From Escherichia coli (lineage in GTDB: Bacteria > Pseudomonadota > Gammaproteobacteria > Enterobacterales > Enterobacteriaceae), in NCBI RefSeq assembly GCF_016026235.1, contig NZ_CP065613.1: a stretch of 64,000 nucleotides of DNA. One strand, given 5' to 3'. The notes under the pieces were generated by a model. It saw nothing but the letters and a program-made list of their open reading frames with translations, did not search any database and was not told the DNA's origin. Shown here one piece after another: positions 34,859 to 37,426 of this stretch (positions within the stretch are counted from its first letter, which is position 1; the number at the start of each line of letters is the position of its first letter). A program made the position numbers and the translations under genes.

Positions 34859-36399
<1,541 letters not shown>

Positions 36400-36583
36400 A
36401 AAAGTTTGATGCTCAAAGAATTAAACTTCGTAATGAATTACGTGTTCACTCTTGAGACTTGGTATTCATTTTTCGTCTTGCGACGTTAAGAATCCGTATC
36501 TTCGAGTGCCCACACAGATTGTCTGATAAATTGTTAAAGAGCAGTTGCGACGCGGCTTTCAGCTCACTGTCGCGAGGTGGCGT

Positions 36584-36611
36584 ATATTACGCTTTCCTCT
36601 TTCAGAGTCAA
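36584..36611 (-). promoter_or_regulatory. rrnD P2 promoter
   Basis: On the minus strand TTGACT then 16 nt then TAATAT then GC-rich discriminator (acgccacctcgcg), about 200 nt upstream of the mature 16S 5' end. Confidence 0.6.
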
Positions 36612-36691
36612 CCCTGAATTTCAGGATTTTTTCTCTTCGTTGTTACGACCATCTTGTGAAGTGTTTCACGTTGTCGTCTCAACGGAGGCGC

Positions 36692-36719
36692 ATTATAGGG
36701 ATCCCAATTTTTTGCACAA
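36692..36719 (-). promoter_or_regulatory. rrnD P1 promoter with upstream A/T-rich UP / Fis region (to about 36860)
   Basis: On the minus strand cTTGTGCaaaaaattgggatcccTATAATgcgcctcc, with A/T tracts immediately upstream. Confidence 0.6.
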
Positions 36720-36871
36720 GTACTTTTTTGATCTTTTTTTCTGTTTGTTGTTTTTTCACCCTTTTTGCTGCATTCGCACACAAAACGGTGCTTTTTTGCA
36801 TACTAAAAGACTTGCACAAGGCCAATAATGCCCCCAAAGTCATTAGTAAATCATTTATTGCTGAGGTAAGT

Positions 36872-37426
36872 ATGTCTGATGTTTTACGCCCATACCGCGA
36901 TCTTTTTCCACAAATCGGTCAGCGCGTAATGATCGACGATAGCAGTGTCGTGATTGGTGACGTTCGTCTGGCTGATGATGTGGGGATCTGGCCGCTCGTT
37001 GTGATTCGTGGAGATGTACATTATGTACAGATCGGAGCACGCACCAATATCCAGGATGGCAGTATGTTGCATGTCACTCATAAATCCTCGTACAACCCAG
37101 ATGGCAACCCATTAACCATTGGCGAAGATGTCACTGTTGGTCACAAGGTGATGCTCCACGGCTGCACCATTGGCAATCGAGTTTTGGTTGGGATGGGCTC
37201 AATTTTACTTGATGGCGCAATAGTAGAAGATGATGTGATGATTGGTGCGGGTAGTCTGGTCCCACAAAATAAACGGCTGGAGAGCGGATATCTGTATCTC
37301 GGTAGCCCCGTCAAACAGATCCGCCCGTTAAGTGATGAAGAGAAGGCTGGGTTACGCTATTCCGCGAATAATTACGTGAAATGGAAGGACGAATATCTGG
37401 ATCAGGGTAACCAGACCCAGCCTTGA
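36872..37426 (+). CDS. yrdA: Hexapeptide-repeat (gamma-carbonic-anhydrase-like) protein YrdA
   Basis: 184 aa from MSDVLRPYRDLFPQIGQRVMIDDSSVVIGDV; the track ORF at 36545 is an artefactual 5' extension. Confidence 0.9.
   Translation: MSDVLRPYRDLFPQIGQRVMIDDSSVVIGDVRLADDVGIWPLVVIRGDVHYVQIGARTNIQDGSMLHVTHKSSYNPDGNPLTIGEDVTVGHKVMLHGCTIGNRVLVGMGSILLDGAIVEDDVMIGAGSLVPQNKRLESGYLYLGSPVKQIRPLSDEEKAGLRYSANNYVKWKDEYLDQGNQTQP

What the first reader, a model, noticed from the sequence alone, without database searches (positions are those of the whole stretch)
36400..36871. yrdA is transcribed divergently from within about 150 bp of rrnD P1
The yrdA start codon (36872) sits about 150 bp from the rrnD P1 -35 element on the opposite strand. 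Its upstream region is therefore the A/T-rich UP-element and Fis-site region of the rRNA promoter. Expression of this gamma-carbonic-anhydrase-like protein could be coupled to growth-rate control of rRNA synthesis through shared Fis or supercoiling effects.
Basis: inference. Interest (0 to 1): 0.2.

Follow-up and report, generated by a model that had tools for sequence, protein, structure and literature searches.

The report
yrdA promoter beside rrnD P1
The small gene yrdA does start back-to-back with a ribosomal RNA promoter and sits inside that promoter's upstream control region; the layout is old and already annotated, and nobody has tested whether the two are regulated together.

Summary
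The window is E. coli. The geometry holds. rrnD P1 lies on the minus strand: -35 TTGTGC at 36719-36714, -10 TATAAT at 36697-36692, +1 G at 36683. The yrdA ATG is at 36872, which is -189 from P1 +1, with 152 bp between the -35 hexamer and the ATG.

The gap contains an A-rich UP element (36721-36742) and Fis-like 15-mers centred at -71 and -144. No yrdA start-site data could be obtained.

Comparison across genera points to a weak sigma-70 promoter: TTGCAC at 36812-17, a 17-bp spacer, CAAAGT at 36835-40, and a predicted start near 36847. That is 164 bp from P1 +1. The -144 Fis-like site lies in its spacer.

The divergent yrdA/rrn pairing occurs in Enterobacterales, some Vibrionaceae and Aeromonas. 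The 92 bp between the two -35 elements is fixed in 23 of 25 enterobacterial genera.

Coupling through Fis or supercoiling is plausible but untested. The anatomy suggests Fis would compete with RNA polymerase at yrdA rather than co-activate it, and the yrdA promoter lacks the GC-rich discriminator of rRNA promoters.

The layout is not special to rrnD: yieP sits at -189 from rrnC P1, and purH is also divergent from rrnE. This is ordinary, annotated anatomy carrying a reasonable but unproven idea. Interest is low.

The parts
34859..36399 (-). rrsD 16S rRNA gene, the first gene of rrnD
   Evidence: Rfam SSU_rRNA_bacteria, 1577.6 bits. The K-12 annotation names it rrsD.
36400..36683 (-). rrnD leader, from P1 +1 to the 16S 5' end. 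It contains P2 and boxA (TGCTCTTTAACAA, 36543-36531).
   Evidence: Sequence read. The leader is nearly identical in all seven K-12 rrn operons. An RNase III site is reported in the rrsD-yrdA spacer.
36584..36611 (-). rrnD P2: -35 TTGACT at 36611-36606, 16-bp spacer, -10 TAATAT at 36589-36584
   Evidence: It is the only hit of the promoter scan. My position-weight score is 11.85.
36683..36719 (-). rrnD P1 core: -35 TTGTGC at 36719-36714, 16-bp spacer, -10 TATAAT at 36697-36692, discriminator GCGCCTCC, +1 G at 36683
   Evidence: Sequence read and score 9.88. The core is invariant in 25 genera. Discriminator mutations map here. Placing +1 at the G rests on my knowledge that rrnD P1 initiates with GTP, 9 nt after the -10.
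36721..36742 (-). UP element of P1 (-59 to -38): AGAAAAAAAGATCAAAAAAGTA
   Evidence: Sequence read. G+C is 35% with AT skew -0.51. Conservation is high, with mean information 1.49 bits.
36747..36761 (.). Fis-like site I, GTTGTTTTTTCACCC, centred at 36754 (-71 from P1 +1; about -93 from the predicted yrdA start)
   Evidence: Ad hoc Fis score 8.0. The window-wide frequency of scores of 8 or more is 0.0018 per position. A site is present at -71 in 24 of 25 genera, and at -73 in the other, where the assembly carries an ambiguous base. It is also present in 6 of 7 E. coli rrn operons.
36787..36801 (.). Weak Fis-like site centred at -111 (GGTGCTTTTTTGCAT)
   Evidence: It scores only 5.0 in E. coli. 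A site scoring 7 or more lies at -111 in 14 of 25 genera, and at -112 or -113 in two more.
36812..36840 (+). Predicted yrdA sigma-70 promoter: -35 TTGCAC at 36812-17, 17-bp spacer, -10 CAAAGT at 36835-40, predicted start near 36847
   Evidence: It is the best plausible plus-strand pair, with score 5.47. The one higher hit pairs TTGATC with a T-run, and the score of 5.47 is not above background. Both hexamers are conservation islands (1.37 and 1.34 bits) between variable flanks (0.70, 0.66 and 0.44 bits). The block is 29 bp long in 25 of 25 genera. In 74 species the best promoter-like pair ends 25-40 nt before the ATG in 38 cases. Many of those score higher, for example TTGTAA-16-TAGTAT and TTGGTA-17-TATATT. 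The hexamers are invariant within E. coli.
36820..36834 (.). Fis-like site GGCCAATAATGCCCC, centred at 36827 (-144 from P1 +1; about -20 from the predicted yrdA start)
   Evidence: Ad hoc score 8.0. A site lies at -143 or -144 in 8 of 25 genera. It sits inside the spacer of the predicted yrdA promoter.
36863..36867 (+). yrdA ribosome-binding site, GAGGT
   Evidence: Conserved in nearly all species.
36872..37426 (+). yrdA coding sequence (184 aa, gamma-carbonic-anhydrase-like hexapeptide-repeat protein)
   Evidence: ORF list and annotation. It matches PDB 3TIO/3TIS 'Protein YrdA' at E = 2.5e-121. NCBIfam hits are to gamma-CA, CaiE and PaaY models, all below their cut-offs.
37020..37047 (-). Antisense promoter inside yrdA: -35-like TTGGTG at 37047-42, -10 CATAAT at 37025-20. 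It points the same way as rrnD, about 330 bp upstream of P1 +1.
   Evidence: Dornenburg et al. 2010 report an antisense RNA in yrdA with -10 CATAAT. I located the motif in the sequence.

Best explanation
yrdA has its own weak sigma-70 promoter, back-to-back with rrnD P1 and embedded in the distal half of the P1 upstream activating region.

Anatomy, shown or directly read.
- P1 +1 is at 36683.
- The UP element spans -38 to -59.
- Fis-like sites are centred at -71 and -144, with a weak one at -111.
- The yrdA ATG is at -189.

Promoter position, inferred from conservation.
- The yrdA -35 is TTGCAC at 36812-17 and the -10 is CAAAGT at 36835-40.
- The predicted start is near 36847, which gives a 5' UTR of about 25 nt and 164 bp between the two start points.

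Consequences, inferred from footprint sizes.
- RNA polymerase on the yrdA promoter would cover about -109 to -184 of P1.
- It would therefore exclude Fis from the -111 and -144 sites, and be excluded by Fis bound there.
- Fis site I, the UP element and P1 itself would stay free.

Expected behaviour, not tested.
- High Fis occupancy in early exponential growth would damp yrdA rather than co-activate it.
- The negative supercoils thrown upstream by heavy rrnD transcription would favour opening of the weak yrdA promoter.
- Because the yrdA discriminator is A/T-rich, direct ppGpp or initiating-NTP control of the rRNA type is not expected.

The arrangement is ancient and its spacing is held fixed.
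For: - Geometry and P1 identity.
- The sequence upstream of about -45 (for rrnD, upstream of about -14) is not shared with the other six rrn operons. It is single-copy in 5,386 of 5,426 E. coli genomes.
- Fis-like sites: the score is calibrated on the three known rrnB sites and on the -71 site in six of seven operons. Sites recur at -71, -111 and -144 across genera.
- yrdA promoter: two conservation islands 17 bp apart. The block has constant length, and the distance to the P1 -35 is a constant 92 bp in 23 of 25 genera, while the 5' UTR varies from 26 to 35 nt.
- Promoter-like pairs sit at the same place in distant genera, in at least 14 different sequence versions.
- A yrdA::lacZ fusion carrying 'the natural yrdA promoter' was expressed, and YrdA is visible on 2-D gels. 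An active promoter must therefore lie in this 189-bp gap.
- The divergent rrn/yrdA pairing is found in 48 of 80 species loci, reaching Salinivibrio and Aeromonas.
Against: - No transcription start data for yrdA were obtained. The supplements searched held nothing for yrdA or for its coordinates.
- By score alone TTGCAC-17-CAAAGT is no better than the best hit in 66% of random 186-nt genomic segments. The consensus scan finds no plus-strand promoter.
- The Fis score is a home-made rule, not a binding measurement.
- The -144 site is present in only about a third of genera, and its central bases are poorly conserved at 0.66 bits.
- The published rrnD Fis footprints (Hirvonen 2001) could not be read.
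- The conserved islands could be something other than promoter hexamers.
- No expression data bear on Fis, supercoiling or growth rate.
Confidence: 0.45

Rival explanations
1. Neighbours only. yrdA has an independent, roughly constitutive promoter, and its closeness to rrnD P1 is a frozen piece of gene order with no regulatory consequence. The fixed spacing would reflect constraints of the rrn upstream region alone.
For: Every E. coli rrn operon has a neighbour pressed against its upstream region. The stops of hemG, murI and gmhB lie at -86, -82 and -77, and the clpB stop at -152. The yieP ATG is at -189 and the purH ATG at -331. Close packing is therefore the rule and needs no special explanation. 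None of the 38 papers mentioning yrdA links it to Fis or growth rate, judging from their titles and abstracts. The whole flanking gene block is conserved synteny.
Against: The distance from the P1 -35 to the yrdA -35-like element is 92 bp in 23 of 25 genera, although the sequence between them is only 48% identical to E. coli. The 5' UTR, by contrast, varies freely in length. A Fis-like site sits inside the predicted core promoter.
Confidence: 0.35
2. Positive coupling. Fis bound at site I, and/or transcription-driven negative supercoiling from rrnD, activates yrdA so that it rises with rRNA synthesis.
For: Site I is centred about 93 bp upstream of the predicted yrdA start. That is two helical turns further than the -71 position from which it activates P1, so it would lie on roughly the same face (the phasing is my inference). 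The two start points are about 164 bp apart and divergent, which is the geometry in which twin-domain supercoiling coupling is known. That is established knowledge for ilvY/ilvC and leu-500, not tested here. The core hexamers are weak yet the protein is detectable.
Against: The predicted start is uncertain by a few bases, which undoes any phasing argument. The Fis-like site at -144 overlaps the core promoter at a repressing position. The A/T-rich discriminator is not that of a growth-rate-controlled promoter. There are no data.
Confidence: 0.15
3. The yrdA promoter is a heat-shock (sigma-32) promoter, or a dual sigma-32/sigma-70 one.
For: A sigma-32 ChIP-chip study listed yrdA as a target about 110 bp upstream of the ATG. 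In this window CTTGCAC-N14-CCCCAAAG resembles CTTGAAA-N13-14-CCCCATNT (the consensus is from my own knowledge).
Against: Both groups in the ChIP debate set this target aside as lying in repetitive sequence. The C-run is polymorphic within E. coli, reading GCCCCC, GCACCC or GTACCC. It is absent in other genera, where only (C/T)CAAAGTC is kept.
Confidence: 0.05

Closest known systems
rrnB P1 upstream activating region (UP element plus Fis sites I-III; Ross 1990, Hirvonen 2001; from my own knowledge)
   Same: rrnD has an A-rich UP element at -38 to -59 and a Fis-like site at exactly -71. It has a distal Fis-like site at -144, against -143 in rrnB. The P1 -10 and discriminator are near-identical.
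   Different: The rrnD sequence upstream of about -14 is unrelated to that of the other operons. The -35 is TTGTGC, and the start is G rather than A. The distal part of the region doubles as the promoter of a divergent gene, whereas at rrnB it lies in the 3' end of murI.
yieP/rrnC and purH/rrnE divergent pairs in E. coli
   Same: In each, a protein gene is transcribed away from an rrn P1. The yieP ATG is at -189 from rrnC P1 +1, the same distance as yrdA from rrnD P1.
   Different: purH is further away, at -331. I did not test whether these pairs are as widely conserved, or whether their promoters overlap Fis sites. No clear yieP promoter was found at the equivalent place.
Supercoiling-coupled divergent promoters (ilvY/ilvC, leu-500 systems; from my own knowledge)
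   Same: The promoters are back-to-back and less than 200 bp apart, and one of them is very heavily transcribed.
   Different: Coupling has been shown experimentally there. Here there are no data.

Membership tests
rrn P1 upstream activating region | A/T-rich UP element at about -40 to -60 | tested here: met
   The sequence from -59 to -38 is AGAAAAAAAGATCAAAAAAGTA. The region is 35% G+C with AT skew -0.51 and is conserved.
rrn P1 upstream activating region | Fis site I centred near -71 | tested here: met
   This is a motif-level test only. The score is 8.0 at -71. A site lies at -71 in 24 of 25 genera and at -73 in the other, where the assembly carries an ambiguous base. The same position is hit in 6 of 7 E. 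coli operons.
rrn P1 upstream activating region | Fis protein binds there and activates P1 | not testable with these tools
   Gaal 2016 states this for rrnD, citing Hirvonen 2001. The primary paper is not held.
Divergent promoter pair with a shared regulatory region | Two start points on opposite strands, less than about 200 bp apart | tested here: inconclusive
   P1 +1 is at 36683. The yrdA start near 36847 is only predicted from conservation. No start-site data were found.
Divergent promoter pair with a shared regulatory region | A regulator site that acts on both promoters | tested here: inconclusive
   The Fis-like 15-mer at 36820-36834 lies in the spacer of the predicted yrdA promoter. 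It is present in only about a third of genera.
Divergent promoter pair with a shared regulatory region | Correlated or anti-correlated expression | not testable with these tools
   No expression data could be reached.
rRNA-type growth-rate and stringent-controlled promoter | G+C-rich discriminator between the -10 and +1 | tested here: not met
   After CAAAGT the sequence is CATTAGT, and it is A/T-rich in other genera too. P1 has GCGCCTCC.
Sigma-32 promoter | CTTGAAA, 13-14 nt, CCCCATNT, and conserved | tested here: not met
   There is a partial match in this window only. The C-run is polymorphic in E. coli and is not conserved across genera.
Gamma-carbonic-anhydrase-like protein (YrdA) | Sequence identity to the solved YrdA protein | tested here: met
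   PDB 3TIO/3TIS at E = 2.5e-121.

The most novel reading that the evidence does not exclude
The yrdA promoter may be a working part of the rrnD upstream nucleoprotein complex rather than a bystander. Its position is phase-locked, with 92 bp between the two -35 elements in nearly all Enterobacteriaceae. That could mean a polymerase bound or transcribing divergently at yrdA belongs to the structure formed on the P1 upstream region. That structure could include the unidentified, Fis-independent cis element between -60 and -397 that Gaal et al. 2016 found necessary for rrnD to co-localise with other rrn operons. Their deletion removes the yrdA promoter and the first 70 or so codons, and the paper never mentions yrdA.
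Probability: 0.06. Interest if true: 0.55.

Novelty: already known. Interest (0 to 1): 0.17.

Why it matters
If yrdA proved to be controlled by Fis occupancy or by supercoiling from rrnD, it would be a clean natural example of a protein gene wired to the activity of an rRNA promoter. It might also give a first clue to the physiological role of YrdA, which is still unclear.

A practical point matters more. Constructs that delete or tag 'the Fis-site region' of rrnD also remove or interrupt yrdA and its promoter. Phenotypes assigned to that region are therefore confounded by them.

As it stands the finding restates a known gene arrangement and adds an untested idea.

Tried and rejected
- Start-site data. 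I searched the supplements of four genome-wide TSS papers for yrdA, b3279, neighbouring genes and coordinates in both K-12 numbering versions. The papers were Kim 2012, Ettwiller 2016 (Cappable-seq), the ROSE in vitro set and Shigella M90T. Nothing turned up, and the held files may be truncated.
- Papers not available. Thomason 2015, Hirvonen 2001, Cho 2008 and Sanchez-Vazquez 2019 are not held. The Kahramanoglou 2011 and Dornenburg 2010 supplements are not held. A text search for b3279 found nothing relevant.
- Promoter scans. The built-in scan found no plus-strand promoter. My scan's top plus-strand hit, TTGATC-17-TTTTTT, is a T-run artefact inside the UP element, so I rejected it.
- AATAAT (36824-29) as the yrdA -10. 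I rejected it because it has no usable -35 (TACTAA) and is only patchily conserved.
- The sigma-32 reading. I rejected it because its -10 C-run is polymorphic and not conserved.
- GACTT...AAGTC as a regulator palindrome. I rejected it because the arms shrink to 3-4 bp in other genera.
- A matching yieP promoter. I looked for one at the equivalent place upstream of rrnC and found none convincing.

Full report
**What is there**

The window is E. coli. The segment 36400-37430 is 100% identical to many complete E. coli chromosomes, in which yrdA and yrdB are annotated. Rfam finds a complete rRNA operon on the minus strand, with 16S at 34859-36399. It carries the tRNA-Ile/tRNA-Ala spacer and the 5S, tRNA, 5S tail typical of rrnD. 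The K-12 record shows the same order: rrsD, then yrdA on the other strand 473 bp away, then yrdB, aroE and tsaC.

**Checking the observation**

- Reading the minus strand gives P1 with -35 TTGTGC at 36719-36714, a 16-bp spacer, -10 TATAAT at 36697-36692 and discriminator GCGCCTCC at 36691-36684.
- P1 +1 is the G at 36683. That placement rests on my own knowledge that rrnD P1 starts with GTP, 9 nt after the -10.
- P2 is TTGACT-16-TAATAT at 36611-36584.
- A paper on replication mutants places 'discriminator' mutations of the rrnD promoter at K-12 3,429,052-55. These map to 36688-36691 and confirm the assignment independently.
- The yrdA ATG is at 36872, behind a GAGGT ribosome-binding site. Start and site are conserved in 35 species.
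- The ATG is therefore at -189 from P1 +1, with 152 bp between it and the -35 hexamer.
- The protein is YrdA. It matches PDB 3TIO/3TIS at E = 2.5e-121.

**Is the gap the UP and Fis region?**

Yes.

- The sequence from -59 to -38 is AGAAAAAAAGATCAAAAAAGTA. The stretch 36700-36799 is 35% G+C with AT skew -0.51.
- I wrote a simple Fis rule from published preferences: G at -7, C at +7, an A/T core, no A at -4 and no T at +4.
- On rrnB the rule ranks the three known sites (-71, -102 and -143) among its top hits. It finds a site at exactly -71 in six of the seven E. coli rrn operons.
- On rrnD it gives -71 (36747-36761, score 8.0) and -144 (36820-36834, score 8.0), with weak hits at -100 and -111. 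Scores of 8 or more occur at 0.18% of window positions.
- Across 25 enterobacterial genera, sites recur at -71 (24, plus one at -73), at -111 (14, plus two at -112 or -113) and at -143 or -144 (8).
- These are motif matches, not binding data. The paper with the footprints is not held.

**Where is the yrdA promoter?**

No start-site data could be obtained. By score alone nothing on the plus strand stands out. Conservation is more informative.

- In an alignment of 25 genera, the P1 core, the UP element and site I are highly conserved.
- Conservation then falls to 0.70 bits. Two islands follow: CTTGC at 36811-15 (1.37 bits) and CAAAGTC at 36835-41 (1.34 bits). Between them is a 0.66-bit stretch, and after them a variable 5' UTR (0.44 bits) and the conserved ribosome-binding site.
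- The islands fit a -35 (TTGCAC) and a -10 (CAAAGT) 17 bp apart. The predicted start is then near 36847.
- In 74 species the best promoter-like pair within 120 nt of the ATG ends 25-40 nt before the ATG in 38 cases, against about 17% expected if positions were uniform.
- Many of those pairs score far better than the E. coli one. Examples are TTGTAA-16-TAGTAT in Serratia and Yersinia, TTGGTA-17-TATATT in Rahnella and TTGCAC near TATAGT in Enterovibrio. The species are related, so these counts are descriptive. Even so, at least 14 different sequence versions keep a promoter-like pair at this spot.
- A lacZ fusion with 'the natural yrdA promoter' was active, so a promoter must lie in this gap.

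**Geometry of the pair**

- The two start points would be 164 bp apart.
- The yrdA core promoter occupies -129 to -157 of P1.
- The -144 Fis-like site lies in its spacer, at about -20 from the yrdA start.
- Site I lies at about -93 from the yrdA start.
- The distance from the P1 -35 to the yrdA -35 is 92 bp in 23 of 25 genera and 91 bp in two. The -35 to -10 block is 29 bp in all 25. The 5' UTR ranges from 26 to 35 nt.
- This holds although the intervening 36762-36811 is only 48% identical to E. coli. The ATG is at -184 to -193 in 29 of the 30 loci L002-L032 in which P1 could be located.

**How old, and how unusual?**

- A search with YrdA over one genome per species returned 80 loci. In most Enterobacterales, and in several Vibrionaceae and Aeromonas, the contig ends 180-600 bp upstream of yrdA. 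The remaining DNA matches the rrnD promoter and leader on the opposite strand.
- A P1 of the form TATAATGCGCC is recognisable opposite yrdA in 48 loci, at 152-267 bp from the ATG. Most carry the rrnD-type -35 TTGTGC. Pseudomonas lacks the pairing.
- The arrangement therefore predates the split of these orders.
- It is not unusual within E. coli. Three of the seven operons have a divergent neighbour, and the yieP ATG is at -189 from rrnC P1, the same distance.
- In the other four operons a co-directional gene ends 77-152 bp from P1 +1.
- The rrnD region upstream of about -14 is unrelated to the other operons. It is single-copy in 5,386 of 5,426 E. coli genomes at 97-100% identity.

**How it most likely works**

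The anatomy above is shown or directly read. What follows is inferred.

- A polymerase on the yrdA promoter would cover roughly -109 to -184 of P1. It would therefore compete with Fis at the distal sites and leave site I, the UP element and P1 free.
- High Fis occupancy should then lower yrdA, not raise it.
- Heavy divergent transcription from P1 should add negative supercoils that help a weak promoter open.
- The A/T-rich discriminator after CAAAGT argues against rRNA-type control by ppGpp or initiating-NTP concentration.
- The net sign is not predictable from sequence.
- The main rival is that the two are merely neighbours. I rate that only a little less likely.

**Comparison with what is known**

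This is the known rrnD P1 upstream region next to an annotated gene. The divergent layout, the UP element and the fact that Fis activates rrnD P1 are all established (citing Hirvonen 2001). I did not find a description of the position of the yrdA promoter inside that region, or of the fixed spacing. None of the 38 papers mentioning yrdA deals with Fis or growth rate, judging from their titles and abstracts.

**A practical consequence**

In the rrn co-localisation study, the 'Fis sites' deletion runs from -397 to -60 of rrnD P1, which is window 36743-37080. It removes the yrdA promoter and about 70 codons. The parS tag sits at or beyond -397, inside yrdA. The paper does not mention yrdA.

**Verdict**

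The finding is ordinary.

Noticed in passing
window 37020-37047, minus strand: An antisense RNA inside yrdA, reported experimentally, has -10 CATAAT (37025-20) and a -35-like TTGGTG. It points the same way as rrnD and starts about 330 bp upstream of P1 +1. Unless terminated, it would read through the yrdA promoter and the Fis/UP region. Mutating its -10 did not change yrdA::lacZ.
   Followed up: partly
window 36730-36733 and 36701-36704; loci L008-L062 upstream of yrdA: GATC sites are enriched upstream of yrdA in Enterobacterales. The mean is 2.7 per 170 nt, against about 1.0 per 170 nt in the 3 kb that begin at each yrdA start codon. One GATC lies inside the P1 UP element. Most genera also have a pair 10 bp apart at about -89 and -99 from P1 +1, which E. 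coli, E. albertii and Citrobacter have lost. The cause is unknown; Dam or SeqA involvement is only a guess.
   Followed up: partly
L084 (K-12 rrnC upstream): The divergent yieP ATG lies at -189 from rrnC P1 +1, exactly the distance of yrdA from rrnD P1. No clear promoter was found at the matching position.
   Followed up: partly
L091 (NZ_CM132953.1), equivalent to about window 36763: One E. coli blood isolate carries an IS100 element inserted between Fis-like site I and the predicted yrdA promoter. This is a natural separation of yrdA from rrnD P1.
   Followed up: no
window 37402-37426: yrdA and yrdB converge and overlap by 25 bp. The pair is listed among candidate excludons in a 2025 survey.
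   Followed up: no
window 36831-36835: The C-run before CAAAGT, which gives the sequence a sigma-32-like look, is polymorphic among E. coli strains. It reads GCCCCC, GCACCC or GTACCC. TTGCAC and CAAAGT are invariant in the seven Escherichia sequences compared (six E. coli and one E. albertii).
   Followed up: yes
window 36743-37080: The rrnD 'Fis sites' deletion (-397 to -60) used to map the cis element for rrn operon co-localisation removes the yrdA promoter and about 70 codons of yrdA. Another study places a parS tag '282 bp upstream of rrnD'. Neither paper mentions yrdA.
   Followed up: partly
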